From: an uncultured Bacilli bacterium
GTDB lineage: Bacteria; Bacillota_I; Bacilli_A; RF39; UBA660
Length of the DNA: 57,149 nucleotides
Direction of reading: 5' to 3'
Assembly: GCA_947595045.1 (NCBI GenBank)
Contig: CANQEN010000001.1
Span: 1-57,149 of the forward strand
Positions 18,953 through 42,958 of the stretch are shown in pieces. Both the position numbers and the translations under genes were made by a program. A model generated the notes under the pieces. That model ran no database searches and was not told where the DNA came from. It saw nothing but the letters and a program-made list of their open reading frames with translations. Each line of letters opens with the position of its first letter. The first letter of the stretch is position 1.

Positions 18953-19007
18953 ATGAACGTATTAAATTACTATGACTCATATAGGTCATGGCGGAAGGAG
19001 ATATGTT

Positions 19008-27243: not shown

Positions 27244-28449
27244 TTAACATAATATTTTAGTTTTTGGCTTTTCTGGATATTTTTCTGGATATAATAAGTT
27301 ATTATAAATATAAGTTTCTATTTTTTCTAAATCTTCTCTAGAATCAAACCACCTAACTTTTCTATTATTAGTTATTTCACTAATAATCTCTATACCATAT
27401 TTCTTTGTTCTACAAAGAGTTATACCATAAGAATCTTCTAAAAAATAGGGATAGTCTTTAATTAAATTATCTAAATTGCTATCTTCTAAATTAATTAATT
27501 TATCATCTTCTGTTTTCACCAATTTATTATTTAGAATTTTTTTTCTTTTCGTCTCTAAATCGAATAGTATAATATTTTTTTGTTCCTCAAATATTATATA
27601 ATCATCAAGTATAAAGAAGTTTTCATTCCAAAGACCCTCACAACTTAAAATTTTATTAAAATCTTTATCGTATACATCAATTTTATTATCAACTATTGCA
27701 AATAAAGGCAAATGTAAATTTATAAACAAAATTTCTTGATAAATACATTCAATTTTTATGTCTCCATTTTGATCAATAATACCATATTTATTATTTGTTT
27801 TTATATAATAATGATTATTTGATATACCTATACCTATGCCTATATCGTCACATATTATTTTTTTATCAAAATTGAATATAAATCCTTTATTTTTCTGATA
27901 AAGGGCTGAATAATTATTTTGATCAGTTAATAATATATGAAAGCCGGGTAATAATTCTATTTTTTTATATTTGTCTGTTAAATTTATAATGATATTATAT
28001 TCGTTATCGATAACCCCATATAAATTATTTTTATATATTATAGCCATAAGATTAGTAAAACCAGACATAGCATCCCAATATTCGTTTGATATTTTTCCAT
28101 GCCTATATGGGGGATATTTTTTTATCATTGGTTTTTTAGGTTTTTCATAATTACAATTAGAACTAATTATCTTATTGACTTCAATTTCATTTAAATTATA
28201 TTCAGGGTGGTAAAGATATAAAGGGTCAAACTCAACACGTCTACATTCACCATTACAAAGATTAATTGCTTTAAAAAAGCTAGTTGTATATCTAGCAAGA
28301 TATATTTCATTATTGTAATTATATAATTTAAATTGTTTGTATTCTTCTTCGTTTAAAGAATATTCAGTTAATGAATATGTTCTATTTTTGATGTATTGTT
28401 TTAAAACTTCTTTTGTTGTTCGTTTAGTTATAATTTCTTTAATTTTCAT
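27244..28449 (-). CDS. WG-repeat-containing protein, function unknown
   Basis: 401 aa. Repeats of the WG/KWG type: NNLYGVIDNEYNIIINL and NNKYGIIDQNGDIKIECIYQEI. Lies 2 nt downstream of the preceding gene, so it is in an operon with it. Confidence 0.65.
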   Translation of the reverse strand: MKIKEIITKRTTKEVLKQYIKNRTYSLTEYSLNEEEYKQFKLYNYNNEIYLARYTTSFFKAINLCNGECRRVEFDPLYLYHPEYNLNEIEVNKIISSNCNYEKPKKPMIKKYPPYRHGKISNEYWDAMSGFTNLMAIIYKNNLYGVIDNEYNIIINLTDKYKKIELLPGFHILLTDQNNYSALYQKNKGFIFNFDKKIICDDIGIGIGISNNHYYIKTNNKYGIIDQNGDIKIECIYQEILFINLHLPLFAIVDNKIDVYDKDFNKILSCEGLWNENFFILDDYIIFEEQKNIILFDLETKRKKILNNKLVKTEDDKLINLEDSNLDNLIKDYPYFLEDSYGITLCRTKKYGIEIISEITNNRKVRWFDSREDLEKIETYIYNNLLYPEKYPEKPKTKILC

Positions 28450-28451
28450 TT

Positions 28452-29855
28452 TTATTTATCCTTTTCTTTTATTTTTAATTTTTGATATTCTTTTGTATTT
28501 TTAATATTTAAAAGTTTACATATTTCTTTACGTAATACATCTTTGCATAATTTTTGATTTATTTCTTCCATCATGTCTGGTTGTATTTCTTTTAATTTTA
28601 AATAGAGTTCTTTATTAATGTTTGATGTATTTATATTGTTTAATAATTTTTGAACTATTTCATCATTATATTCTAAACAAATTGTTTTATAATTTTCAAA
28701 AATTTTCTCTAAAAATTTCATATTTATATCTGGAATATGACAAGTATTAAAGCGTGAATATTCGTGTTTAACTGTATAATACGATTCAGATGATGGGCAT
28801 CCAGTCATAAGCTGTTCGAATGGGCTATAGTAATTAGTCTTTAAAACTGGTACTGTTTTATTAATTTCAAAATCTAATTTAAAAAAAGGAGGATAGTTAT
28901 TAATAATTAATTCTTTTAGCTCTATAAGTTCATATAAATTATTAGTTCTATTACTGCTTAATAATTTGTTTATAAAGGTAAAATCATTCATAAAATAATT
29001 TTCCCATTTATAAACAAAATAAATCCAATCGTATGGAGTGGTATCCAATATCCACATTGATTCCAATAATTGTTTAATATCAATATTAGGTATATTTAAT
29101 TTTTCCTTTATTTTATTATTCCTAATTCTAAAATAGTCAAAAAATTCTAATAATATGCTAAAACGAGCACTATTTGGTATATGTATATAAAAAGATACTG
29201 GTTTAATATATTCTAAAATAATATTTTTTAAATTTTTTGGGCAATTATTAAGTAAACTAATATATTTATTAAATAAAGATAAGTCATTTGTATATAAGCA
29301 TAATGTATAAATGTCATCTAATGTTATATATGGATTATTGTTTAAGATATTATCAATATCTAAATCTATTATTAAGTTATCTTTTAATAAGCAATAGAAT
29401 AAATTATTAGGAGCTAAACTTTTTTCTAAATATGTTTTATATAATGCATCAATTAATTTTTCAATATTTAACTGTTTAATAGCTTCAATATTTATTTTTC
29501 TAGTAAAGCCTATACCCATATGATCAAGGTAAACAGCTTCTTTATCATTATTAGTTGGCGAATAAAATCCATATTTTTTAAATAAATTATAAAAATTAAA
29601 AATGCAAAATATAGTTAATTGGAAACTGCAATTATTAAATAGGTTAGAAATATTATGGTAATTAGAATAAAAGAGGTCACCTTTTTGTTTAAGATTTTTA
29701 AGTTCATCATTTTTAAGTTCATCGTCTAGATATTTAAGTTCATTATTTGTCTGATGCCTAATTATAGATACTATATTATCATTAATTATAAGTCCATCAT
29801 CTTCTAGTCTTAGTTTTTCAAAATTATTATTTATTGTGTTATTGTTTTTATTCAT
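28452..29855 (-). CDS. Hypothetical 467-aa protein (no recognisable motif)
   Basis: Clean long ORF. GGAGGT lies 6 nt before ATG 29855, inside the longer ORF-track start at 29876. Asn/Lys/Ile-rich with no TM helix by eye. Confidence 0.6.
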   Translation of the reverse strand: MNKNNNTINNNFEKLRLEDDGLIINDNIVSIIRHQTNNELKYLDDELKNDELKNLKQKGDLFYSNYHNISNLFNNCSFQLTIFCIFNFYNLFKKYGFYSPTNNDKEAVYLDHMGIGFTRKINIEAIKQLNIEKLIDALYKTYLEKSLAPNNLFYCLLKDNLIIDLDIDNILNNNPYITLDDIYTLCLYTNDLSLFNKYISLLNNCPKNLKNIILEYIKPVSFYIHIPNSARFSILLEFFDYFRIRNNKIKEKLNIPNIDIKQLLESMWILDTTPYDWIYFVYKWENYFMNDFTFINKLLSSNRTNNLYELIELKELIINNYPPFFKLDFEINKTVPVLKTNYYSPFEQLMTGCPSSESYYTVKHEYSRFNTCHIPDINMKFLEKIFENYKTICLEYNDEIVQKLLNNINTSNINKELYLKLKEIQPDMMEEINQKLCKDVLRKEICKLLNIKNTKEYQKLKIKEKDK

Positions 29856-29925
29856 AAGAATACCTCCTAATTTCATTATAATGTTAAGGTTGTAATAAGT
29901 AAAATATCATTTTTTTATTATATTA

Positions 29926-29955
29926 ATAACTTTTAGTTATAAATTGTGTTATAAT
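29926..29955. promoter_or_regulatory. LysR-type palindrome (T-N11-A) overlapping the lysR promoter in the divergent intergenic region
   Basis: ATAAC-TTTTA-GTTAT is a perfect dyad at 29926-29940. The extended -10 TGtTATAAT is at 29947-29955, and RBS AGGTGGAG is at 29961-29968. Confidence 0.45.
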
Positions 29956-29972
29956 GATTTAGGTGGAGATTT

Positions 29973-30839
29973 ATGTATCAAAATATTAATTTAAATTTAT
30001 TAAAATATTTTTATGAAGTTGCTAATACTAAAAATATTACTAAAGCAAGTAACAATTTATTAGTATCACAACCAGCTATTACTAAGTCTATTAAAGAGTT
30101 AGAAAAGGAGTTTAATACTAAGTTACTTGAAAGAAATAAAAAGGGAGTTATTCCAACTAAAGAGGGAGAAATATTATATAACTATATTAAGGAAATGTTT
30201 AAAGATCTTGGTTCAACTATCAACGCTATTGAGAAACATAAGGCAAATAGAAATTATCTATATATTGGGGCAACAACAACTAATTTTTTAGAGTTAATAA
30301 AAGATGCTCTAAAAGAGTTTAAAAGAAATTATCCAAACATTCATATTGATATTGTTTTAGAAGAAATGAATGTATTAGAAAGTAGAGCTAAACTAGGCAA
30401 ATTAGATATATTAATAAAAAATGATTATGAATTTATGGAAGGATTTAAAAAAATAAAATCCTTTGATATAACAGATAAATTTGTAGCCTCTAGGTCTAGT
30501 TTTAGTGAGTTACAAAATAAAAAGTTAGTATTAGATGAAATACTAGATTATCCTTTAGTATTATTAGGACCAAACACACATGGCAGAAGAAACTTTGATT
30601 CTTATTTAAAGCAGCATAAAATTAATTTTAAACCAACCTATGAATTCAATAGGCATAGTTTATGTAAAGAACTAATTAGAAATGGTTTTGGGATAGGAAT
30701 AGGAAACCCTATTCATTATACAAGTAAAGATTTTATGATACTTGATACTGATTTTGAATTACCCACTAGGACCTTTGATATTGGTTATATTAATTATTCA
30801 AAAAATGAGTTAATAAATGATTTTATTAAATTATTATAA
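29973..30839 (+). CDS. LysR family transcriptional regulator
   Basis: N-terminal wHTH LKYFYEVANTKNITKASNNLLVSQPAITKSIKELEKEFNTKLLER; 288 aa with a periplasmic-binding-protein-like C-terminal domain. Confidence 0.9.
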   Translation: MYQNINLNLLKYFYEVANTKNITKASNNLLVSQPAITKSIKELEKEFNTKLLERNKKGVIPTKEGEILYNYIKEMFKDLGSTINAIEKHKANRNYLYIGATTTNFLELIKDALKEFKRNYPNIHIDIVLEEMNVLESRAKLGKLDILIKNDYEFMEGFKKIKSFDITDKFVASRSSFSELQNKKLVLDEILDYPLVLLGPNTHGRRNFDSYLKQHKINFKPTYEFNRHSLCKELIRNGFGIGIGNPIHYTSKDFMILDTDFELPTRTFDIGYINYSKNELINDFIKLL

Positions 30840-32035: not shown

Positions 32036-32542
32036 ATGTTCTATCTAAATTGTTTTTTTATATACTCTATACTAGGGTGGTGCTTAGAAACAATAGTTAG
32101 TTTTATATTTAAAACTAATTTTCAAAGTGGTATTTTAAAGGGCCCATGGACACCCATATATGGGATTGGAACTCTCGTTATTCTATTTATTTCACATTAT
32201 CTTTTTTATAATTTACATATGCCAAGATGGATAGAAACTATTATTGTCTTTTTTGTAGTGGCAGTAGTTTTATCTTTTTTTGAATGTTTAGGTGGTGTTA
32301 TCATTGAAAAATTATTTGGTGTTATATTTTGGGATTATAGTAATCAGCGATTTCATATAGGACATTATATTTCTTTAGAAATGGCAGCTATATGGGGAAT
32401 ACTATCTATAGTTTTTATATATATAATTCACCCCATAATAGAAAAAATTATTTTAAAAATCCCCTACTTTATTACTATTATATTATTAGGATTATTTATA
32501 TTAGATTTAGGAATAACTGTTTTTACTAAAGTAAAGAAGTAG
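32036..32542 (+). CDS. Small polytopic membrane protein (PF06541 'putative ABC-transporter type IV'-like)
   Basis: 168 aa with 4-5 TM helices. FFIYSILGWCLETIV and GPWTPIYGIG resemble the PF06541 N-terminal signature. Confidence 0.6.
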   Translation: MFYLNCFFIYSILGWCLETIVSFIFKTNFQSGILKGPWTPIYGIGTLVILFISHYLFYNLHMPRWIETIIVFFVVAVVLSFFECLGGVIIEKLFGVIFWDYSNQRFHIGHYISLEMAAIWGILSIVFIYIIHPIIEKIILKIPYFITIILLGLFILDLGITVFTKVKK

Positions 32543-32587
32543 TATTTGTAAAAAATATATATAAGATAATTAATGCGAACTTTATAA

Positions 32588-32995
32588 TTAGCTACACCAA
32601 TTTAAATTATGATTTAATGAATCAATAAAATCATTAATCGTTTTAGCTTCTTCAATAGCAATATTATATTCATTATTATCTAAAGTTATATGGTAATTAA
32701 AAAGATGAATATTATCTGATTGATAATCTTTTATTGAATCTCTTATTTTATTTATATTATATTCATATTTTCTAGAGAAAATAATAGTATTTTTATTATA
32801 GGTAGAAATACCTTTAATAAATTTATAAGTATTATCACTGTAAGCTATAAGAATATTAGATGGACAATTCATAGATATATTAGATATTTCTAATATTTTT
32901 TCTTTCTTTTTTATAATAAAACTATTAAATAATAAATAAATTAATATGAAAGTGGCAATAATTATGATTGATATAAATACTTTCTTTTTATTCAT
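32588..32995 (-). CDS. Hypothetical membrane-anchored 135-aa protein
   Basis: AAGGAG lies 7 nt before ATG 32995. One N-terminal TM helix (VFISIIIIATFILIYLLF). The rest has no known motif. Confidence 0.55.
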   Translation of the reverse strand: MNKKKVFISIIIIATFILIYLLFNSFIIKKKEKILEISNISMNCPSNILIAYSDNTYKFIKGISTYNKNTIIFSRKYEYNINKIRDSIKDYQSDNIHLFNYHITLDNNEYNIAIEEAKTINDFIDSLNHNLNWCS

Positions 32996-33139
32996 TAAAA
33001 CACTCCTTAGATTAATTCTATAGTAGCACAAATAAATAAGGAAAGCAATATTAAAAAAATAAGGATCATACTGTAAGTTTATTATAGTTTATTAATTTTT
33101 AATTAAAAATTTGATATAATATTGTTGGAGGTAATTAAT

Positions 33140-33757
33140 GTGAATTTTAGAAAAAATCTTATACATAATTTAATAAGTATGTCTGAACAAAAGAATGGCC
33201 TTTATGGTAAAATGGAAGGGTTTATTGGACCAAGTAAAGAAAATCAGCTGCTTTGGTATAAATTTTTAACGTATACACCAAAATGGCAAAAAGAATATAT
33301 AGAACAATTAATAAAAAAACAAGTTTCTGAAATATCAAGAGAAGAGCTAGATTATATAAAAGAATTTGAATGGCAACAACATATAGTAAATCATATGAGA
33401 TATTATATAACAAGCAATTGTAGAGTGATAGACTTTAAAGAAGTGACAAAATATTTAAATGAGCATAGTTTAAATAATATAATAAAATTGAAGTTAACAG
33501 AAGAAGAATTAAATATTGCTAATGGATTAGTCAATGAATATTTAAAAACAAACAATTGGATAAATTGGGTAAGAGTAAATAAAGAAAGAATTAATGAGTT
33601 ATCCATAATTGAATCTTATGTTTGGTATAAATTAAATACATATAAAAATGAAATTGGGCTAAAAGAATTAGAAGATAAAATTAATAATGATACTATGAAC
33701 AATGAAGTTATGCTTATCAAAAGTTTAAGAAATGCAGATGAAATAAGAGCAATATAG
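33140..33757 (+). CDS. Hypothetical 205-aa soluble protein
   Basis: GGAGGT at 33127-33132 favours the GTG 33140 start over TTG 33122. Trp-rich helical sequence with no recognisable motif. Confidence 0.5.
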   Translation: MNFRKNLIHNLISMSEQKNGLYGKMEGFIGPSKENQLLWYKFLTYTPKWQKEYIEQLIKKQVSEISREELDYIKEFEWQQHIVNHMRYYITSNCRVIDFKEVTKYLNEHSLNNIIKLKLTEEELNIANGLVNEYLKTNNWINWVRVNKERINELSIIESYVWYKLNTYKNEIGLKELEDKINNDTMNNEVMLIKSLRNADEIRAI

Positions 33758-33847
33758 GTATAAAAAATTAATAAATTATTTAAGAAGTAAATTAAGAGTA
33801 TAATAAATAAACAAAAATAATTAAGGAAGCAATTTAGATGAATACAA

Positions 33848-34210
33848 TTAAAGTTTATATGCCTTAGATATAGAATATTCAATATTTTTAGAATATTTTT
33901 TTTCATTTAAAGCAGAAGAAATATCTAATTTTTGAAAAATATTTTTTAGATAATCATATCCAATATTAAAATTATCATCATTGAAATCTTTGACCATCTT
34001 TTTATCGAATGTAATAGTTACTTTAGATGAAAGTTCATTTTTAAGAATTTCAATATAAATGGGGTCATCGAATTGTTTCTTTAGATCATATAAATAACCT
34101 AATTTTTGATAAACCTTTTATTTGACTTTATTATTAATTCTATAACAATCAACTATAGATAAATAGGTTTTTCCATTTTTAAATTTAGCTTGCTTTAAGA
34201 AAAAAGACAT
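33848..34210 (-). mobile_element. IS1634/IS4-like transposase N-terminal stub with an in-frame TAA (pseudogene)
   Basis: The minus strand reads MSFFLKQAKFKNGKTYLSIVDCYRINNKVK*KVYQKLGYLYDLKKQFDDPIYIEIL..GYDYLKNIFQKLDISSAL..*. This is the K.NGK.YLSIV..YR....K.....LGYL..L pattern of IS1634-family N-termini. The stop is at 34118-34120. Only ~120 codons remain. Confidence 0.6.
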
Positions 34211-34339
34211 ATTACATAAAAATACACAACATAAAAATAGAAAAGAATTGACAAAAGAAAAGCCTTATATAATAAGGTCTAATTATAAATTATATTTTTA
34301 TTTAACTACAAACCCAGGATAGTAAAATTAAAAAATATA

Positions 34340-34348
34340 TGCTATAAT
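34340..34348 (+). promoter_or_regulatory. Extended -10 promoter element upstream of the giant ORF
   Basis: TGcTATAAT lies 28 nt upstream of ATG 34377. There is no good -35 (TAGTAA). Confidence 0.4.
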
Positions 34349-34376
34349 GATATAAAATAAAGAGCGTGATTAATTT

Positions 34377-37300
34377 ATGTTTGGTAATATTTTAGATAAT
34401 TTTAAAATTAATAAATTTTTTAAGTTAATTGATGCTAATGATTATGGTAAAAATAAAAAGGCTAGCAAATTATTTGATAAACCTAAACTTAGGGTTAAAA
34501 TAATTAATGATCTAAGAATAGTAGATAGTATAACTACTAACTTTTTTGTAGAAACTTATAGTGCTGGTGATATTAAAAGATTAGGAACAATTTTTGATGA
34601 AATTACTAATGATGATATGTTAGTGTTAATGCTTGACAAATTATTGGAATATACCAAAAATCATCAATTAAATTTAATTGATAATTTTTCAAGTATAAAA
34701 AACATTTATGTCTCTCACTGCTATAAAAATACAGAATTAGATAATGCTATTAAAAATAAATTTGCTGATTTATTATATCAAACAGGAAAAAAATCCCTTT
34801 TTCCAACTGATTATATAGAACCTTTTATTAAAAATTTAACAAGTGAAGAAAAATTAAGTATATTTGATAGTGAATCAATGATAAAGTTTGTTACCACATA
34901 TCAAGGAAAAATAGATTATCATACTTGTGAAAATTTTATAAATAATATCATTGATGAACATGACAATGAGGGAGTAAAAAAACAAATTATATTAAATTCA
35001 GTGGATATCTTTATAAATGGAAAGGCGATAAATAGCTATTTAGAATATGTTAATACATATTTAGATAAAGATGGCATTGTGAAAATATTAACAGATAAGA
35101 GAATAATAAACAATATAGATATGAATAAAGATTATTATTTAGCTAAGAATTTAATTACTTTACTTAATAAAGTTGATGATACAAATATTATGTCTCAAGA
35201 TAATGATAAAACTCAAAGTATAGTTACTAAAAATCAGTTAATTGATGTATATTTTAAAAATTATAAATACCCTCATATTATCATAAACTATATAAAAGAA
35301 ATAAATGAGAAAGAAAAAGAACAGATTAGTGATAACACCTTTACAGCATTACTAAATTCTGTAGATTATGCAAAAAAGAATGAAGATATTATAAAAAATT
35401 ATTATGGTAGTAATGCACGATTTGTTTTTAATGCATTAGACCAATATGATGATAAAAATGCAAAACTATTAGAAATTAAAGCTAATATCAGTATTGAAGA
35501 AGTAATGGAATATGCTGTTCAAAATAATATCGATATACGTACGGTTTTAACGTATGCTAAGCAGCATAATATGGATTTATTTCAAGACCATATTGCACAA
35601 AAGTATAGTTCTGATGATAGTTATTTTAGAGAATTACCATATACTAAGGCAGATTTAATTAAATATTATAGGGGAAATGATAGTTATATATTTTTTGATA
35701 AATTAAGATTATGCAATGATAAAGAGAAAGTATTATTAGAATCTAATAATTATATAGATTTTAGTTTATTTCCATATTATGGTAATATTAGTTTAGATTT
35801 ATTCAAAGATTCATTTGCCAAGAAGTTTTGTAATAATGATAGTTATTTTAAAATATTACCAAATGAAAAGTTTTATTTAATAGATTATTATGCAGGAAAA
35901 GATGCTTTAATAGTGTTAAAATACTTAAAAGGCCATAGAAATATTAATGATATTAAAGCTTTTTGCCAAAGCAGAGGAATAGAATTGTTTGAAGAACAAG
36001 TTGCTAAGAAATATAGTAATTATTATGATTATTTTAGAATGCTACCAAAAGATAAAGAATATTTAAAAAAATATTGCGATAATTATGATAATGTATTATT
36101 TTTAGATAAATTATTACAAGCTGATGACAAAGAAAACTTTTTATTGCAATCTAATTTTTTTAATATTAATGCTTTGTTTGAATTTTGTGCTGATAATCAT
36201 TTAGCATTAGATTTATTTCAAGAAAAGTTTGCAATCAAATTTAGACAAAACGAAGATTATTTTAAAAGATTACCAAAAGAAAATGCTTCATTAATACAGT
36301 TTTATGCTGGCTTTGATGAAAATTTATTTTTGCAAAATTTAGTACTAGTTTCTAATAAAGAAGATATATTATTAAATTCAAATATTCATTTAATATATAT
36401 GAATAAATTAAGTAATTTCTGCCAAAATAATGGTATTGATTTATTTCAAAAAAAATTTGCAATGAAATTCAGTCATCTAGATAGTTACTTTGAATTATTG
36501 CCAGATGATAAATTTTTCTTAATAGATTACTATACAGGAAAAGATGTACTAATTGTTCTTAGATATTTAAAAGGTCATAGGAGTATTGATGAAATAATAA
36601 CTTTTTGCCAAAGCAGGGGAATAGAATTATTCTGTGATTTCGTTGCTGAAAAATTTAGTGATTATGATGAATATTTTAGAATGTTACCAGAAGATAGCGC
36701 TGATCTAATAAGATATTATAAGGGTACTAAAGAAGACATATTTGTAGATAAATTAGATTTATGCCATAATAAAAAATCTGTATTGCTATATTCTAATATT
36801 AATGTTAATAAATTCATTTATTTTTGTAATCATTACCATATAGATCCATTTGATTGGAATTCTGCTAAGCGTTATAGGTTTGATGATAGTTATTTTAGAG
36901 AATTACCACCATCTAAAGCAGATTTAATTAAATATTATGCTGGTCGGAATATACAATTATTTTCTAATAAATTAATGTCATGTAATAATAAAATTAATTT
37001 ATTATTTAATTCTAAAATTGGAACTGATATGAAAGAAATAGAAGAAATATATAATTATGCAAAAGAATATATGACCCCTTTAGAATTAAAAATATTAGAA
37101 AATTATATTCAAATAAATGATTATAATTTAAAGAATATATTTAAAGATTATATACTCAATAATATGGAATCAGTTACATTTGATACAATAGATAATGTTG
37201 CTGAAATATTAAAGAGATTGTCAACTTCTAATGCTAGTGAAATGTTAAACTTTAGAAGTGAAATAGCTACGCAATTGTTAAAATCAGCAAATCCAATTAA

Positions 37301-39773
37301 AAGTTTAAATAAAATTGAAGATATATTTATTAAAAACAATATACCAACAGTTGGAAAAATATATTCTTGTTTTGAAATATTACATCCCAATTTTCAAGGA
37401 TTTAATTTTGAAAGTTCGATGGTATCACCTGTACTTAAAAAATCATCAACTATGAATAAAAAATTAATAGTTTTCTCAGATTTAATTAAATCTTCATTTG
37501 GATCAAATAATAGGTCTGTAAATGCTTATTTAAAAAATATTGAGATTGGTTCTAAATTATATGAAAGGATAAAATTAGGACAAATTAAGTGTGATTCACT
37601 TGATGAATCACAAAAGGAAGAATTAATCACTTTTAGTAAACATTTATCAACTCTTTATAATAATACTATAAAAGGTAAAAAGGAAAATGAAACTTTTACT
37701 AATACGGGAGATATTTTAACTGGTATTTTAGAATTATCTAAAAAATTGTCACCAAATGGTACTTTGAATTATAATATAGGTGATAGAGTTATAAGAATGT
37801 TTTGTGGCTTTACTGGGATTGATACATTAGAACAAGCCAATAATTATATTAATCAGAAAATAAGAACTGCTGATACTAGAAATAGAAAGGCATCTAGTTC
37901 AGATATGATATTAGAACAAGGGGATTTTATTAAAGGAATTGGGGATATTACTTATTTAAGAAATATTTTACAAAATGGTAGTGTTTCTAAAGAATATTTA
38001 GGTTCTAGTGCAGGGAGTGATTCAACACCATTAGATACAGATGTATCTATGATTATTAAAGCTGATGGAACAATTAAAGATAAATTTAATGAAACAGCTG
38101 CCAATAGTTATGGCCCTATTTGGTTTGTATTAAAAAATGATGATAGGTTTATAACAACAAGAACCCAGAGTGAACATTTTGATGTTAAAAATGATATGTC
38201 CAAAATGGAAGTTTTTTATACTGGTGTTTGGGGTTCAGATCATTATGGAATAAGAACAGGATTTGCATCCAGTGAAATAAATTATATAGTTATGGATAGT
38301 TATGATCCAAGAGTTGGACTTGAAATTGCGATGAATGGTTTTTATATTCCAGTTGCAAATAAAGAAGGAAAAATAGTATTTACTCCTGATGATTATGATA
38401 AATTGAGAGAAAAAATGAATGGACTTTCATATTATAATGCAAATAATTATACATTCTCTGAAAATTTAGTAACTAAAGAAACAGAATATTTAGCTTCTCA
38501 AATAGAACAAAGTAATTATGAAACTCAAGTTAAAAGAACAAAAATAAATGAAATTATAAAAAAATCCCTTGAAGAATTAGGATTACATTTAAAAACTAAT
38601 ATAAATGGTGATTTGACGGAAGGATTTGTAGAGTTAATTGATACTGGTTCGACAGGTAGAGGTACAAATAAACCGGGGGATGGGGATTTTGACTTTATGA
38701 TGAGATTAGATAAATCAATATTTTCAAATAATACTAAATTAAATCAATTAAAAAATACATTATTAAAAAATTTAGGTAAAGAAAATACTGAAGAAGTCAT
38801 TAATAGTGGTGATTTTAGACTTAAAGAAGTTAAAATAGATAGTAACACTAATGTCGATATTGATATCACTTTTACAGAAAAAACAGATAAAGTTTCTTAT
38901 TCAACTGATATGGCTTTACAAGATAGACTTACTAATATAAAAAATATAAATGCAGAAAAGTATAAATATGTCGTTGCTAATATTCTTCTTGCAAAAGAAG
39001 TATTAAAAGAAGCTGAAGTATATAAGCCAGATCGTGGTGATATAGCACAAGGTGGTTTAGGGGGAGTAGGGATCGAAAATTGGATTTTACAAAATGGAGG
39101 ATCATTTATAGAAGCAGCTAATAGCTTTCTTGAAGCAGCAGAAGGTAAAAGTTTTGATGAGTTTAAAGTAAGTTATCGAATATGGGATTTTGGGGATAAT
39201 CATTTGGCTGAAAGACGAGGAAAATATGTTCATGATAATTTTGTAGTCAATAATATGAATGAAGATGGTTATTGTAAAATGAAAAAGGTATTAACAGAAT
39301 TTATTAAAGATAATAAATATGCGAATGAAGAACAAACCATTAAATATAAAGAATATGATAATAATAATATCGATGAGAAAACATTATTAAAATTGTCTAA
39401 ATTAGAAGTTATTACAGAACAAAGTATTGATGATTTACAAACGATAGTTAAAAATAAAGAGAGTAATAAAATAGTTAGTACAATAGCAACTAATTATGGT
39501 TTGAATAGTAATACAACTAGACTTATTGTTGAAGATGATTTTGCAATAGTATATGATACTATTGGTAATAAAGTCAGAATTGGGGATTTATTATGTTCTA
39601 AAATGAATAGTGAAGTAAAAGATAATATTTGTAAAGCTTTAGGACAATTAGGTAGTAATGTTGATTTATCATTATTAGATAAGCAAAAATTACAGATATA
39701 TAATAAAGTTATGAATTTAAATAATCAAGTTGGTATGAATATTAACATAGGAGAACAACACAAAACAATATAA
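34377..39773 (+). CDS. Giant 1,798-aa multidomain protein: N-terminal helical region, 7 tandem repeats, unknown central domain, C-terminal Pol-beta-type nucleotidyltransferase
   Basis: Uninterrupted 5,397-nt ORF. Repeats span aa 400-900. The NTase signature GSTGRGTNKPGDGDFDF is at aa 1424-1440, with a candidate third carboxylate in VDIDITF (aa 1493-1499). The downstream helix ILLAKEVLKEAEVYKPDRGDIAQGGLGGVGIENWILQNGGSF resembles the class-I CCA/PAP/OAS substrate-binding domain. No signal peptide or TM helix by eye. Confidence 0.8.
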   Translation: MFGNILDNFKINKFFKLIDANDYGKNKKASKLFDKPKLRVKIINDLRIVDSITTNFFVETYSAGDIKRLGTIFDEITNDDMLVLMLDKLLEYTKNHQLNLIDNFSSIKNIYVSHCYKNTELDNAIKNKFADLLYQTGKKSLFPTDYIEPFIKNLTSEEKLSIFDSESMIKFVTTYQGKIDYHTCENFINNIIDEHDNEGVKKQIILNSVDIFINGKAINSYLEYVNTYLDKDGIVKILTDKRIINNIDMNKDYYLAKNLITLLNKVDDTNIMSQDNDKTQSIVTKNQLIDVYFKNYKYPHIIINYIKEINEKEKEQISDNTFTALLNSVDYAKKNEDIIKNYYGSNARFVFNALDQYDDKNAKLLEIKANISIEEVMEYAVQNNIDIRTVLTYAKQHNMDLFQDHIAQKYSSDDSYFRELPYTKADLIKYYRGNDSYIFFDKLRLCNDKEKVLLESNNYIDFSLFPYYGNISLDLFKDSFAKKFCNNDSYFKILPNEKFYLIDYYAGKDALIVLKYLKGHRNINDIKAFCQSRGIELFEEQVAKKYSNYYDYFRMLPKDKEYLKKYCDNYDNVLFLDKLLQADDKENFLLQSNFFNINALFEFCADNHLALDLFQEKFAIKFRQNEDYFKRLPKENASLIQFYAGFDENLFLQNLVLVSNKEDILLNSNIHLIYMNKLSNFCQNNGIDLFQKKFAMKFSHLDSYFELLPDDKFFLIDYYTGKDVLIVLRYLKGHRSIDEIITFCQSRGIELFCDFVAEKFSDYDEYFRMLPEDSADLIRYYKGTKEDIFVDKLDLCHNKKSVLLYSNINVNKFIYFCNHYHIDPFDWNSAKRYRFDDSYFRELPPSKADLIKYYAGRNIQLFSNKLMSCNNKINLLFNSKIGTDMKEIEEIYNYAKEYMTPLELKILENYIQINDYNLKNIFKDYILNNMESVTFDTIDNVAEILKRLSTSNASEMLNFRSEIATQLLKSANPIKSLNKIEDIFIKNNIPTVGKIYSCFEILHPNFQGFNFESSMVSPVLKKSSTMNKKLIVFSDLIKSSFGSNNRSVNAYLKNIEIGSKLYERIKLGQIKCDSLDESQKEELITFSKHLSTLYNNTIKGKKENETFTNTGDILTGILELSKKLSPNGTLNYNIGDRVIRMFCGFTGIDTLEQANNYINQKIRTADTRNRKASSSDMILEQGDFIKGIGDITYLRNILQNGSVSKEYLGSSAGSDSTPLDTDVSMIIKADGTIKDKFNETAANSYGPIWFVLKNDDRFITTRTQSEHFDVKNDMSKMEVFYTGVWGSDHYGIRTGFASSEINYIVMDSYDPRVGLEIAMNGFYIPVANKEGKIVFTPDDYDKLREKMNGLSYYNANNYTFSENLVTKETEYLASQIEQSNYETQVKRTKINEIIKKSLEELGLHLKTNINGDLTEGFVELIDTGSTGRGTNKPGDGDFDFMMRLDKSIFSNNTKLNQLKNTLLKNLGKENTEEVINSGDFRLKEVKIDSNTNVDIDITFTEKTDKVSYSTDMALQDRLTNIKNINAEKYKYVVANILLAKEVLKEAEVYKPDRGDIAQGGLGGVGIENWILQNGGSFIEAANSFLEAAEGKSFDEFKVSYRIWDFGDNHLAERRGKYVHDNFVVNNMNEDGYCKMKKVLTEFIKDNKYANEEQTIKYKEYDNNNIDEKTLLKLSKLEVITEQSIDDLQTIVKNKESNKIVSTIATNYGLNSNTTRLIVEDDFAIVYDTIGNKVRIGDLLCSKMNSEVKDNICKALGQLGSNVDLSLLDKQKLQIYNKVMNLNNQVGMNINIGEQHKTI
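35574..37076 (+). repeat. Seven in-frame tandem repeats (62-76 aa) forming a ~640-nt higher-order repeat inside the giant ORF
   Basis: Unit starts are at aa 400, 474, 536, 612, 688, 750 and 823. Each unit is (D/E)(L/P)F...(A)(K)(K/R)(F/Y)...D.YF(R/K).LP..K..LI.YY.G and ends in FC....(I)(D/E)LF. Units starting at aa 474 and 688 (and at 536 and 750) are 214 aa apart and are closest to each other. Confidence 0.85.
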
Positions 39774-39790
39774 AAATTAATTTTCCTATC

Positions 39791-39819
39791 TTTACAAAAT
39801 AGTTATTGTTTGTTATAAT
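39791..39819 (+). promoter_or_regulatory. SigA-type promoter for rpsF-ssb-rpsR
   Basis: -35 TTTACA (39791-39796), 17-nt spacer, extended -10 TGtTATAAT (39811-39819). Confidence 0.65.
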
Positions 39820-39885
39820 CAATAGCGAGTAAATTAATTACTCCTTGCCATGTATTGGCCAAAAGACCATAAGGAGGTGGAAATA

Positions 39886-40188
39886 ATGAGACATTATGAA
39901 ATTATGTTTATTGTCAAACCTACATTAAGCGAAGAAGCAATTAAGGCTACTGCTGATAATTTTAAAAATGTACTAGAAAAATTAGAAGCAACAGTAACTA
40001 ATGTAGATGAATGGGGACAAAGATCATTAGCTTATGATATTAAAAAAGGTTCGGAAACTTTTAAAAGTGGTTATTACTATGTATATGAAGTTGATGCTAA
40101 TTCTCATGAGGCTATAAAAGAATTTGATCGTTTAGCACGTATTAGCCCTGATATTATTAGACATTTAATCATAAAGAAAGAAGATTAA
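39886..40188 (+). CDS. rpsF: 30S ribosomal protein S6
   Basis: MRHYEIMFIVKP.. with AAGGAGGTGG upstream of ATG 39886. The ORF-track start at 39850 is an extension. Confidence 0.93.
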   Translation: MRHYEIMFIVKPTLSEEAIKATADNFKNVLEKLEATVTNVDEWGQRSLAYDIKKGSETFKSGYYYVYEVDANSHEAIKEFDRLARISPDIIRHLIIKKED

Positions 40189-42824: not shown

Positions 42825-42958
42825 CAATTTATGTGTGGCGTGCTATGATGTGTGAGGTTGCCGATACACCAGGTTAAGTTGTTAACAAAAATAAAATAAT
42901 AGTCGGGTTTTTACACGGAGCAAGTCTATACGAGATATAGGCGAAGGGAGGACGAAAA

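What the first reader, a model, noticed from the sequence alone, without database searches (positions are those of the whole stretch)
34377..39773. Giant 1,798-aa repeat-plus-nucleotidyltransferase protein in an accessory insertion between ychF and rpsF
A single uninterrupted 5.4-kb ORF has the following architecture:

- aa 1-399: an Asn/Lys/Ile-rich, apparently helical region.
- aa 400-900: seven tandem repeats.
- aa ~905-1394: a region with no motif I can name.
- aa ~1395-1600: a Pol-beta-fold nucleotidyltransferase.
- aa ~1601-1798: a ~200-aa tail.

I see no signal peptide or TM helix, so the protein is probably cytoplasmic. The gene has its own extended -10 element. An IS1634-like transposase stub lies directly upstream. 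The gene occupies a position where ychF and rpsF are immediate neighbours in Bacillus-type genomes. It looks more AT-rich than the flanking core genes.

A large repeat scaffold fused to an OAS/cGAS/CCA-like NTase is the general logic of sensor-plus-nucleotide-signal or nucleotidylating conflict proteins. I know of no described family with this layout. My hypothesis is a single-polypeptide defence or effector protein in which the repeat array binds a ligand and the NTase is the output.
Basis: partly seen in the sequence, partly recalled or inferred. Interest (0 to 1): 0.85.

Follow-up and report, generated by a model that had tools for sequence, protein, structure and literature searches.

The report
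ART-like plus nucleotidyltransferase giant protein
The 1,798-aa gene is real and belongs to a large, unannotated family from gut bacteria whose conserved C-terminal part joins an ADP-ribosyltransferase-like domain to a nucleotidyltransferase; this probably acts on nucleic acids, but nobody has tested what it does.

Summary
The ORF (34377..39773, 1,798 aa), its seven repeats and the Pol-beta nucleotidyltransferase (NTase) are confirmed. The gene is absent from the ychF-rpsF interval of the three closest relatives found.

The conserved unit is a 745-aa C-terminal module (aa 905-1648):
- a helical domain;
- a divergent ADP-ribosyltransferase (ART)-fold domain, closest to DarT and Tpt1/KptA. This lies in the "region with no motif";
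- a two-lobed NTase, closest to archaeal CCA-adding enzyme, CD-NTases and TUTases.

Candidate catalytic residues of both enzyme domains are 95-100% conserved.

The module defines a family of at least 1,229 clusters (50% identity) in 419 species genomes: gut Bacilli, Clostridia and Saccharibacteria. Pfam, NCBIfam and PADLOC do not annotate it. No relative turned up in viral contigs, and no partner gene is conserved. The part N-terminal to the module differs between subfamilies. The window's type is rare, and its repeat array is expanded (7 copies versus 2-3).

My best reading (about 0.4) is a stand-alone cytoplasmic conflict enzyme that modifies nucleic acids by two nucleotide-transfer activities, with the variable N-terminus as sensor or targeting part. 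RNA-end repair is the main rival.

The IS1634 stub and the AT-richness claims are not supported.

The parts
34340..34348 (+). TGcTATAAT extended -10-like element, 28 nt upstream of the ATG. The -35 is weak (TAGTAA at 34320-34325).
   Evidence: Read directly. Such sites are at chance density in this DNA, so this is a match to a consensus, not evidence of function.
34377..39773 (+). Whole ORF, 1,798 aa plus stop codon.
   Evidence: Identical to database protein P0001.
34377..35555 (+). N-terminal domain, aa 1-393, rich in N/K/I. It is subfamily-specific ('type B').
   Evidence: Composition. Homologous over its full length only to a few relatives (P0088 E 3.7e-18, P0111 E 2.2e-10). No Pfam or NCBIfam hit.
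35556..37088 (+). Seven tandem repeats (aa 394-904). Units are 62-88 aa with the core LF..KF...D.YF+.LP.....LI.YY.G.
   Evidence: The same repeat occurs 2-3 times in 10 relatives.
37089..37895 (+). All-alpha domain that opens the conserved module (aa 905-1173). Invariant residues include P990, K994, D1035 and S1043-N-N1045.
   Evidence: AF2 model with pLDDT mostly 83-95. Conservation (positions +27). No structural or sequence match beyond chance.
37896..38474 (+). ADP-ribosyltransferase-fold domain (aa 1174-1366). Candidate active-site residues are K1186-G1187 (strand 1), D1220/D1222 (strand 2), Y1245-G1246, E1278 and F1280 (strand 5), R1293 and Y1323.
   Evidence: AF2 of the domain alone: pLDDT 83.2, pTM 0.79. 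Foldseek against PDB: DarT1 8baq E 0.01, yeast Tpt1 7yw4 E 0.039 (prob 0.97, TM by target 0.61). Cholix toxin, DarT, KptA, tankyrase/PARP1, CteC, pertussis S1 and ExoA are also among the top 50. Conservation 92-100%.
38475..39320 (+). Two-lobed Pol-beta nucleotidyltransferase (aa 1367-1648). Palm lobe: G1424-S1425, D1437, D1439, D1496. Helical lobe: K1540, Y1549-K1550 and GGLGGVGxENWILQNGGS (aa 1559-1576).
   Evidence: AF2. Foldseek: archaeal CCA-adding enzyme 1ueu, CdnC 6p8v, Trf4 3nyb, CdnE, TUT7, GLD-2, prob 0.9-1.0. NTP_transf_2 hits weakly in 14 of 27 members, and above Pfam's cut-off in relative P0188. Conservation.
39321..39773 (+). C-terminal tail, aa 1649-1798, plus stop codon. No recognisable domain.
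   Evidence: Shared only with L069, P0114 and P0127. Most family members end about 15 aa after the module. No significant Pfam or NCBIfam hit.
33830..34213 (-). Degenerate reading frame with an internal stop codon (MSFFLKQAKFKNGKTYLSIV...). Its identity is unverified.
   Evidence: Translation. No hit in NCBIfam, Pfam or plasmid tblastn.
30893..31993 (+). ychF, the left border of the variable interval.
   Evidence: Pfam MMR_HSR1 and YchF-GTPase_C in homologues.
39850..40188 (+). rpsF, the right border of the variable interval. The likely true start is 39886. ssb and rpsR follow.
   Evidence: The gene call in L085 gives a 100-aa S6 protein. A TTTACA-17-TGnTATAAT match lies at 39791-39819.

Best explanation
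What it is (confidence about 0.85): a variant member of a large, so far unannotated protein family. The family is defined by a 745-aa C-terminal module made of a helical domain, a divergent ART-fold domain (nearest structures DarT and Tpt1/KptA) and a two-lobed Pol-beta NTase (nearest structures class-I CCA-adding enzyme, CD-NTases and Trf4/TUT-type terminal transferases). Both enzyme domains keep near-invariant candidate catalytic residues, so both are probably active.

How it most likely works (inferred; the confidence value of 0.4 refers to this part): it is a stand-alone cytoplasmic conflict protein, either defence or an addiction/effector type. Its two nucleotide-transfer domains would modify nucleic acid. 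The ART domain would use NAD+ to ADP-ribosylate a DNA base or an RNA/DNA phosphate end, as its structural neighbours do. The NTase would add nucleotides to a 3' end or make a short oligonucleotide. The interchangeable N-terminal region would recognise a trigger or target and keep the enzymes in check, since no immunity or partner gene exists. Here that region is a 393-aa domain plus an expanded array of seven repeats.

In this genome the gene lies in a variable interval between two core operons (ychF and rpsF-ssb-rpsR).
For: Architecture and catalysis:
- AF2 model of the module: pLDDT 88.6, pTM 0.88.
- NTase structural matches. ART-fold matches for the isolated mid domain, plus ART-type hits in the viral library: a DUF3626 protein (the Pfam family of the Salmonella effector SopF), an iridovirus PARP-like protein and a Bodo saltans virus ART.
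- Conservation across 198 members at 40-78% identity: K1186 99%, E1278 99%, F1280 100%, Y1323 100%; G1424/S1425/R1428 100%; D1437 and D1439 99%; D1496 95%.

Family size and spread:
- 1,229, 1,050 and 825 clusters at E <= 1e-3, 1e-10 and 1e-30.
- 419 species genomes, mostly uncultured gut and rumen Bacilli, plus Clostridia and three Saccharibacteria.
- Two copies occur in single MAGs (L028/L054 and L027/L062).

Accessory and mobile behaviour:
- The gene is absent from the ychF-rpsF interval of the three nearest relatives, although wider synteny is conserved.
- Positions are scattered.
- A split version is cargo of a Tn4451-like mobilisable transposon. The identical protein is on record for 170 contigs and indexed in 323 blocks of the collection.
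- Some copies sit next to serine recombinases.

Variable N-terminus on a constant module:
- 96 'type A', 11 window-type and 84 other N-termini among 252 proteins. hhalign between type A and the window's type gives 0.3% probability.
- Giant variants carry extra domains, for example a transglutaminase-like protease in P0149.

No partner, cytoplasmic location:
- No conserved neighbour gene in 75 loci.
- No signal peptide anywhere. Nine relatives are C-terminally membrane-anchored, which places the enzymes on the cytoplasmic side.
Against: - There is no experimental datum on any member.
- The ART assignment rests on weak Foldseek scores (best E 0.01; TM 0.35-0.6) and has no sequence-profile support.
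- The canonical H-Y-E or R-S-E triad is not present as such: a Lys sits where His or Arg is expected.
- Neighbours are mostly housekeeping genes, and only a handful match defence models. Defence-island enrichment, the usual argument, is therefore absent.
- No relative was found in 2.9 million viral contigs, so there is no direct phage link.
- The module is strongly conserved even between phyla (44-46% identity over 740 aa), and its GC matches each host. That fits a long-resident useful enzyme as well as it fits a weapon.
- A toxic two-enzyme protein without an antitoxin requires tight autoinhibition, which is assumed here, not shown.
Confidence: 0.4

Rival explanations
1. RNA (tRNA) end-healing enzyme. 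The Tpt1/KptA-like ART domain would remove or cap a terminal phosphate through ADP-ribosyl transfer. The CCA-adding-like NTase would then rebuild missing 3' nucleotides. The purpose would be to repair RNAs cut by ribotoxins or to maintain tRNAs in reduced genomes.
For: The second-best structural match of the mid domain is yeast Tpt1, and TkoKptA also matches. The top match of the NTase is the archaeal CCA-adding enzyme. Published comparative genomics links KptA and template-independent NTases to RNA repair in conflicts (PMC9503650). Many copies lie among translation and transcription genes. The module is highly conserved and its GC is host-adapted.
Against: No RNA ligase, 2H phosphoesterase or kinase/phosphatase is fused or adjacent. 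The Tpt1 N-terminal RNA-binding lobe was not recognised. A repair enzyme does not obviously need a swappable 400-3,300-aa N-terminus, paralogues or transposon carriage. The family is present in only 419 of 185,579 species genomes.
Confidence: 0.22
2. CBASS-like signalling in one polypeptide. The NTase would make a cyclic or linear oligonucleotide when the N-terminus senses infection. The ART-like domain, or a tail/TM anchor, would act as the effector in cis.
For: CdnC, CdnD and CdnE are among the best structural matches (TM by target 0.44-0.48). The GS-x-x-RGT...DxD motif resembles SMODS: 3 of 27 members hit SMODS weakly, and the PADLOC cyclase model hits at E 1e-3.
Against: No nucleotide-sensor domain (SAVED, STING, CARF, TIR) was found in the protein or its neighbours. 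The PADLOC hit covers only 54 aa around the catalytic motif. The matches to CCA-adding enzyme and TUTases are equally good, so the fold does not discriminate between them.
Confidence: 0.1
3. Exported toxin or effector aimed at competitors or at the host cell, with the variable N-terminus as a delivery or targeting part.
For: ART and NTase domains are common toxin modules. Giant variants carry a transglutaminase-like protease. The hosts (RF39-type Bacilli, Saccharibacteria) live in close association with other cells.
Against: No signal peptide, LXG/WXG, RHS or other trafficking domain was found in any member scanned. No adjacent immunity gene or secretion genes are present. In polymorphic toxins the N-terminus is the conserved part and the toxin tip varies, which is the opposite of what is seen here. 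Where a membrane segment exists, it is a C-terminal anchor.
Confidence: 0.1
4. Bifunctional small-molecule (antibiotic) modifying enzyme. It would combine an Arr-like ADP-ribosyltransferase with an ANT/Lnu-like nucleotidyltransferase and be carried as transposon cargo where Tn4451 carries catP.
For: The split version is the cargo of a Tn4451-like mobilisable transposon spread through many gut metagenomes. Both folds include known drug-modifying enzymes (established knowledge: Arr, ANT(4'), Lnu).
Against: Neither Arr nor KNTase/Lnu structures appear among the top 50 matches. Such enzymes are small and need no 270-aa helical domain or 400-900-aa N-terminus. Most copies are chromosomal, in uncultured commensals.
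Confidence: 0.05

Closest known systems
DarT (DarTG toxin) and Tpt1/KptA, the nucleic-acid-directed ADP-ribosyltransferases
   Same: They are the best structural matches of aa 1174-1366 (8baq E 0.01; 7yw4 E 0.039, TM by target 0.61; 7omv, 7omx, 9ldi). The strand-helix start is followed by a conserved Glu on a central strand (E1278).
   Different: Sequence similarity is undetectable. Lys1186 replaces the strand-1 His. There is no DarG macrodomain partner and no recognised Tpt1 RNA-binding lobe. The domain is embedded in a 1,300-1,800-aa protein next to an NTase.
Class-I (archaeal) CCA-adding enzyme and Trf4/TUT7/GLD-2 terminal nucleotidyltransferases
   Same: A two-lobed Pol-beta NTase: a palm with GS...DxD...D plus a helical lobe. 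These are the top Foldseek matches (1ueu, 3nyb, 8opt, 6lbk).
   Different: TM-scores are only 0.35-0.42 by target. No tail or body domains for tRNA binding are present. The window's protein does not reach Pfam's NTP_transf_2 cut-off (14.2 versus 21 bits). The GGLGGVGxENWILQNGGS signature is specific to this family.
CD-NTases of CBASS (CdnC, CdnD, CdnE)
   Same: Comparable structural similarity (TM by target 0.44-0.48). A weak hit to the PADLOC cyclase model.
   Different: There is no Cap effector, HORMA/Trip13 or Cap2/3 genes nearby. The protein is fused to large extra domains.
Polyvalent proteins of phages and conjugative elements (Iyer et al. 2017, PMC5512222)
   Same: Very large multi-enzyme polypeptides that can combine ART and Pol-beta NTase domains. 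One sub-lineage rides on a mobilisable transposon.
   Different: Their ART has an H-Y-D site and their NTase is a minimal MNT-type domain fused to ArdC-N. In this family the NTase is two-lobed, and no metallopeptidase hub domain was detected. No viral relative was found, and most copies are chromosomal, between housekeeping genes.
MNT-HEPN (HepT/MntA-type) modules
   Same: The NTase is followed by a helical domain. This domain hits HEPN_RiboL-PSP above Pfam's cut-off in one relative, P0049 (29.8 versus 28.4 bits). It also hits weakly in 3 of the 27 members of alignment A1.
   Different: The Rx4-6H motif is not conserved: R1613 32%, R1614 25%, H1619 81%. The helical domain superposes as the second lobe of CCA/CD-NTase-type enzymes.

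Membership tests
Pol-beta nucleotidyltransferase superfamily | hG[GS]-x9-13-Dh[DE]h motif on strands 1-2 of the palm | tested here: met
   T-G1424-S1425-TGRGTNKPGDG-D1437-F-D1439-F. G, S and R1428 are 100% conserved; D1437 and D1439 are 99% conserved in 198 members.
Pol-beta nucleotidyltransferase superfamily | Third catalytic carboxylate on a later strand | tested here: met
   D1496 in V-D-I-D-I-T-F: D 95%, E 4%. It lies on strand 587-597 of the model.
Pol-beta nucleotidyltransferase superfamily | Palm fold plus helical second lobe, as in CCA class I, PAP, OAS and CD-NTase | tested here: met
   AF2 pLDDT 88.6. All of the top 29 Foldseek PDB hits are such enzymes, with prob up to 1.0 and E from 0.02.
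Pol-beta nucleotidyltransferase superfamily | Pfam NTP_transf_2 score above the gathering cut-off | tested here: not met
   The window's protein scores 14.2 bits against a cut-off of 21. Family member P0188 reaches 25.7 bits. 14 of 27 members hit weakly.
CBASS CD-NTase | Operon with a cyclic-nucleotide-sensing effector (Cap) gene | tested here: not met
   No conserved neighbour in 75 loci. 149 flanking proteins give 125 Pfam families, none present in more than 4. The window's own neighbours are unrelated.
CBASS CD-NTase | Match to CD-NTase / SMODS sequence models | tested here: inconclusive
   PADLOC cyclase model E 1e-3, 16.5 bits, over aa 1413-1466 only. SMODS hits in 3 of 27 members, best E 0.025.
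ADP-ribosyltransferase superfamily (DarT / Tpt1-KptA clade) | ART fold (split beta-sheet with an NAD+ cleft) | tested here: inconclusive
   Foldseek on the isolated domain: most of the top 50 are ARTs, but the best E is 0.01 and TM is 0.33-0.61. ART-type hits also occur in BFVD. There is no sequence-profile support.
ADP-ribosyltransferase superfamily (DarT / Tpt1-KptA clade) | H-Y-E or R-S-E catalytic triad | tested here: inconclusive
   By secondary-structure position, strand 1 carries K1186-G (99%) instead of H or R. Strand 2 carries D1220-T-D1222. Y1245-G follows. Strand 5 carries E1278-x-F1280 (99% and 100%). No residue-level superposition was available.
DarTG toxin-antitoxin | Adjacent DarG macrodomain antitoxin | tested here: not met
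   No macrodomain in the protein or in the flanking genes.
Tpt1/KptA RNA 2'-phosphotransferase | N-terminal RNA-binding lobe with the Arg-His-Arg-Arg tetrad | not testable with these tools
   The tools give no structural alignment output. The Pfam PTS_2-RNA model did not hit.
HEPN RNase (fused MNT-HEPN) | Conserved Rx4-6H motif | tested here: not met
   R1613 32%, R1614 25%, H1619 81%. HEPN_RiboL-PSP hits in only 3 of 27 members.
Polyvalent proteins of phages and conjugative elements | Encoded by phages or conjugation loci, typically with a zincin metallopeptidase hub, an H-Y-D ART and a minimal NTase | tested here: not met
   No relative in IMG/VR. No MPTase or ArdC domain. The NTase is two-lobed.
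IS1634 transposase (upstream remnant at 33830-34213) | Match to a transposase model or to annotated transposase genes | tested here: not met
   No hit in NCBIfam (E <= 1), Pfam (E <= 5) or tblastn against 72,556 plasmids.

The most novel reading that the evidence does not exclude
This family is a previously unrecognised class of single-gene, two-enzyme nucleic-acid modifiers. An ART-like domain and a terminal-transferase/CD-NTase-like domain would act on the same substrate or control one another. Examples would be ADP-ribosylation of a DNA or RNA end coupled to nucleotide addition, or an NTase-made nucleotide that switches on the ART. A modular, fast-changing N-terminus would gate the enzymes. 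That would be a new immune or conflict mechanism spread by transposons through gut Firmicutes and Saccharibacteria.
Probability: 0.3. Interest if true: 0.8.

Novelty: new variant of a known kind. Interest (0 to 1): 0.62.

Why it matters
- Scale. The family has more than a thousand sequence clusters and occurs in hundreds of gut and rumen species. One allele is copied identically across hundreds of metagenome assemblies on a mobilisable transposon. Yet it has no annotation, no Pfam domain and no entry in the PADLOC library of defence-system models.
- Biochemistry. It joins two nucleotide-transfer chemistries: NAD+-dependent ADP-ribosylation of the DarT/Tpt1 type and NTP-dependent nucleotidyl transfer of the CCA/CD-NTase type. 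I found no description of these two working in one polypeptide. If both are active on nucleic acid, this would add a new enzymatic logic to bacterial conflict or RNA-repair biology.
- Host biology. It would also give a handle on the barely studied biology of uncultured RF39-type Bacilli and Saccharibacteria.
- If ordinary. Even as a repair enzyme, it would define two new subfamilies of well-known enzyme superfamilies.

Tried and rejected
- Whole-protein homology search. It was swamped by low-complexity word matches and returned only 3 relatives. Searching the module alone fixed this.
- Sequence searches of PDB with the protein and with the family profile. They gave only a chance-level clathrin hit.
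- NCBIfam and PHROGs: nothing.
- IS1634 stub: no support.
- HEPN reading of the helical lobe. Rejected because the Rx4-6H motif is not conserved.
- Homology between the window's N-terminus and the mainstream N-terminus. Rejected: hhalign probability 0.3%.
- Conserved partner gene. The only recurrent neighbour cluster turned out to be generic ABC exporters.
- Phage origin. No relative in IMG/VR. That scan only seeds on two conserved peptide patterns, so distant relatives could be missed.
- Compositional anomaly. Rejected.
- Downstream 151-aa ORF of the transposon version as the equivalent of the window's tail. No similarity.
- Rfam and tRNA scans. Nothing near the gene.
- Aravind et al. 2015 ART review. 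It is not held in the library.
Full report
**1. The observation**

The ORF at 34377..39773 (+) is uninterrupted and encodes 1,798 aa. The identical protein is in the public collection. It was found again in two other sequencing runs with the same neighbours.

The window has 26.7% GC. The gene has 23.8%, which is within one standard deviation of the other 64 ORFs (27.8 +/- 4.6%). It is therefore not compositionally unusual.

No 19-residue stretch exceeds a Kyte-Doolittle mean of 0.94, and the N-terminus is hydrophilic. I therefore see no TM helix or signal peptide.

TGcTATAAT lies at 34340-34348. Promoter-like matches in this DNA occur at chance frequency.

The seven repeats are real:
- YF[RKE]xLP anchors lie at aa 416, 490, 552, 628, 704, 766 and 839.
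- Units are 62-88 aa and pairwise identity is 29-60%.
- r2/r5 (60%) and r3/r6 (48%) point to a duplicated three-unit block.
- There is no DNA-level tandem repeat.

**2. What is conserved**

A search with the whole protein returned only three relatives, because candidate selection was swamped by low-complexity words. In all three, only query aa ~916-1645 aligned.

Searching with that segment alone gave 299 hits. An exhaustive profile search of 1.84 billion cluster representatives gave 1,229, 1,050 and 825 proteins at E <= 1e-3, 1e-10 and 1e-30. Nearly all cover the whole 745-aa segment as one unit.

A scan of one genome per GTDB species found relatives in 419 species. Most are uncultured gut or rumen Bacilli MAGs (several are labelled Tenericutes). 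Some are Clostridia and three are Candidatus Saccharibacteria.

Pfam, NCBIfam, PADLOC, PHROGs and PDB sequences do not recognise the protein.

**3. Structure of the module**

AlphaFold2 with a 27-sequence alignment gave a confident model: pLDDT 88.6, pTM 0.88. It has three parts.

*(i) aa 905-1173, all-alpha.* Nothing matches this part beyond chance.

*(ii) aa 1174-1366, an alpha/beta domain.*
- I modelled it alone (pLDDT 83.2) and searched it against the PDB.
- The top hits are E. coli DarT1 (E 0.01, prob 0.89) and yeast Tpt1 (E 0.039, prob 0.97, TM by target 0.61).
- Next come cholix toxin, Thermus and Thermosipho DarT, archaeal KptA, tankyrase/PARP1, CteC, pertussis toxin S1, exotoxin A and CC0527.
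- The whole-module search of the viral library also picked up three ART-type proteins: a DUF3626 protein, an iridovirus PARP-like protein and a Bodo saltans virus ART. DUF3626 is the Pfam family of the Salmonella effector SopF. That SopF is an ADP-ribosyltransferase is from my own knowledge.
- The scores are weak, but the hits are remarkably uniform. I read this domain as a divergent ART fold. I mark that as probable, not proven, because no sequence profile supports it.

*(iii) aa 1367-1648, a two-lobed Pol-beta NTase.*
- The top 29 PDB hits are all such enzymes. They include archaeal CCA-adding enzyme, CdnC/CdnD/CdnE, Trf4, TUT7, GLD-2 and trypanosome TUT4.
- NTP_transf_2 hits 14 of 27 members weakly. 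It passes Pfam's cut-off in relative P0188.
- A HEPN_RiboL-PSP hit on the helical lobe of a few members is not meaningful. The Rx4-6H motif is not conserved, and the lobe superposes as the second lobe of CCA/CD-NTase enzymes.

**4. Catalytic residues**

I aligned 198 family members (40-78% identical to the window over the module) and counted conservation.

NTase:
- G1424, S1425 and R1428 are 100% conserved.
- D1437 and D1439 are 99% conserved.
- D1496 is 95% D plus 4% E.
- K1540 and E1567 are 100% conserved.

ART-like domain:
- K1186 99% and G1187 98% (strand 1, where ARTs carry His or Arg).
- D1215, T1217, D1220 and D1222 each 99%.
- Y1245 92% and G1246 98%.
- E1278 99% and F1280 100% (a central strand, where ARTs carry the catalytic Glu).
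- R1293 97% and Y1323 100%.

The mapping of these residues onto the ART active site is inferred from secondary-structure order. It was not taken from a superposition.

**5. The N-terminus is a swappable part**

- Family proteins are typically 1,300-1,650 aa and end about 15 aa after the module.
- Among 252 module-bearing proteins, 96 share one ~780-aa N-terminal region ('type A'). Another 84 have other long N-termini.
- Only 11 have the window's type. The repeats define this group. Two of these relatives, P0088 and P0111, also match the window's 393-aa N-terminal domain over its full length.
- Those relatives carry 2-3 repeats and are about 1,260 aa. The window's protein has 7.
- The window's protein also has a 150-aa tail. 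Only L069, P0114 and P0127 share it.
- Type A and the window's type are unrelated by hhalign (probability 0.3%).
- Giants of up to 6,114 aa exist. One carries a transglutaminase-like protease domain.
- In Clostridia the gene is split exactly at the helical/ART boundary (...DYNLR | MFCGF...) into 1,015-aa and 550-aa ORFs. This suggests that ART+NTase is the catalytic unit and the rest is a separable subunit.

**6. Genomic context**

The three closest YchF relatives (79-82% identity) share the wider gene order:

BipA - ParA - ParB - MscS - DUF951 - AbgT - ychF - [variable] - rpsF - ssb - rpsR - gpsA - rpsJ

Their ychF-rpsF interval is 0.7-2.1 kb and holds one to three unrelated small genes. The big gene is absent. 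In the window the interval is 7.9 kb. The 'accessory insertion' claim therefore holds.

However, L067 (YchF 65% identical, upstream synteny conserved) has a same-subfamily gene directly after ychF. Either the gene is old at this site or the site is a hot spot.

Elsewhere the family sits in varied places:
- between lepA/hemN and greA/topA;
- between rpoC and rpsL, next to a Panacea-domain gene;
- before polA;
- next to serine recombinases;
- as cargo of a Tn4451-like mobilisable transposon. The element carries a TnpX-type serine recombinase, Mob_Pre and TnpV. Its identical 550-aa protein is on record for 170 contigs and is indexed in 323 blocks of the collection.

Across 75 loci, 149 flanking proteins fall into 125 Pfam families, and none recurs more than 4 times. 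Only a few match defence models. There is thus no partner gene and no clear defence island.

The gene's GC follows the host's, including 39-42% in Saccharibacteria. No relative was found in 2.9 million viral contigs.

Nine of 187 long members end in a strongly hydrophobic C-terminal anchor. None has an N-terminal signal. This places the enzymes on the cytoplasmic side.

**7. Interpretation**

Shown:
- the architecture, the family, its spread and its accessory, partly mobile behaviour;
- the NTase fold and its catalytic motif.

Probable: the ART fold.

Inferred: the function. I favour, at about 0.4, a stand-alone conflict enzyme that modifies nucleic acids with both domains and is gated by the variable N-terminus. 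The reasons are:
- a constant enzymatic core with swapped and expanding N-termini;
- patchy cross-phylum distribution;
- paralogues within single genomes;
- carriage on a transposon;
- extra protease domains in the giant variants;
- the nucleic-acid specificity of the nearest structural relatives.

The main rival, at about 0.22, is RNA-end repair: a Tpt1-like step plus CCA-like rebuilding, a link discussed in PMC9503650. The housekeeping-type neighbours and the strong conservation fit it. It lacks any ligase or phosphoesterase partner.

Less likely are a CBASS-like reading, an exported-toxin reading and an antibiotic-modifying reading. The evidence for and against each is given under the rival explanations.

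**8. Comparison and novelty**

The NTase meets the defining features of the Pol-beta superfamily. It cannot be assigned to CCA-adding, TUTase or CD-NTase subfamilies.

The ART-like domain cannot be filed under DarT or Tpt1. It has no partner macrodomain, no canonical triad and no sequence match.

The protein differs from the polyvalent proteins of Iyer et al. 2017 (PMC5512222). Those have an H-Y-D ART, a minimal NTase fused to ArdC-N, and a phage or conjugation context.

In the limited literature I could search, I found no description of this family or of this domain combination. I rate it a new variant of a known kind: a multi-domain nucleotide-transfer enzyme of the conflict or repair type. 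Interest is moderately high.

Noticed in passing
L080-L084 (e.g. L080:4940-10119): In Clostridia the family gene is split at the helical/ART boundary into 1,015-aa and 550-aa ORFs, 13 nt apart, followed by a 151-aa ORF. It is the cargo of a Tn4451-like mobilisable transposon (large serine recombinase, Mob_Pre, TnpV). The identical 550-aa protein is on record for 170 contigs and is indexed in 323 blocks of the collection.
   Followed up: partly
family members P0105, P0016, P0029, P0027, P0099, P0107, P0140, P0148, P0203: Nine of 187 long family members carry a strongly hydrophobic segment (KD19 2.5-3.2) about 20 aa from the C-terminus. This looks like a tail anchor. None has an N-terminal signal. 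The window's protein has a soluble 150-aa tail instead.
   Followed up: partly
window 27244-30839: Two minus-strand ORFs (401 and 474 aa) and a LysR-type regulator lie between the AbgT-like transporter gene and ychF. In the three nearest relatives AbgT is followed directly by ychF, so this is a second variable insertion in the same neighbourhood.
   Followed up: partly
window 32036-34376: The rest of the ychF-rpsF insertion holds three ORFs and the degenerate remnant. One is a CmpB-like membrane protein (PF06541, E 3e-36). The other two have no family match: 147 aa on the minus strand (17.8% GC) and 211 aa on the plus strand. The degenerate frame with an internal stop is at 33830-34213 (-).
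   Followed up: partly
L095:8001-15119: In another gut Bacilli genome a family member sits between rpoC and rpsL. It is accompanied by an HD-domain protein, a LysR regulator and a SocA_Panacea (antitoxin-type) domain protein. This is another accessory islet wedged between core operons.
   Followed up: no
window 42837-42944 and 18970-19000: Rfam finds an S10-Clostridia ribosomal-protein leader upstream of rpsJ and an L31-Firmicutes leader. Both score just above their gathering thresholds.
   Followed up: no
window 39850-39886: The mechanical rpsF ORF (112 aa) starts 12 codons upstream of the start used in the public gene call (100 aa, ATG at 39886). A near-consensus TTTACA-17-TGnTATAAT match at 39791-39819 lies just after the stop of the big gene, so the rpsF operon probably keeps its own promoter.
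   Followed up: partly
P0149 (4,932 aa), P0151 (6,114 aa), P0242 (5,100 aa), L072 (4,887-aa ORF): Giant family members carry the module internally, with long extensions on both sides. P0149 has a transglutaminase-like cysteine protease core at aa 220-321 (E 6e-10).
   Followed up: partly
L028/L054 (MAG MGBC165900) and L027/L062 (MAG Lapin-020__bin10): Two divergent copies of the family (for example 68% and 53% identical to the window's module) occur in the same MAG, so paralogues coexist within a genome.
   Followed up: no
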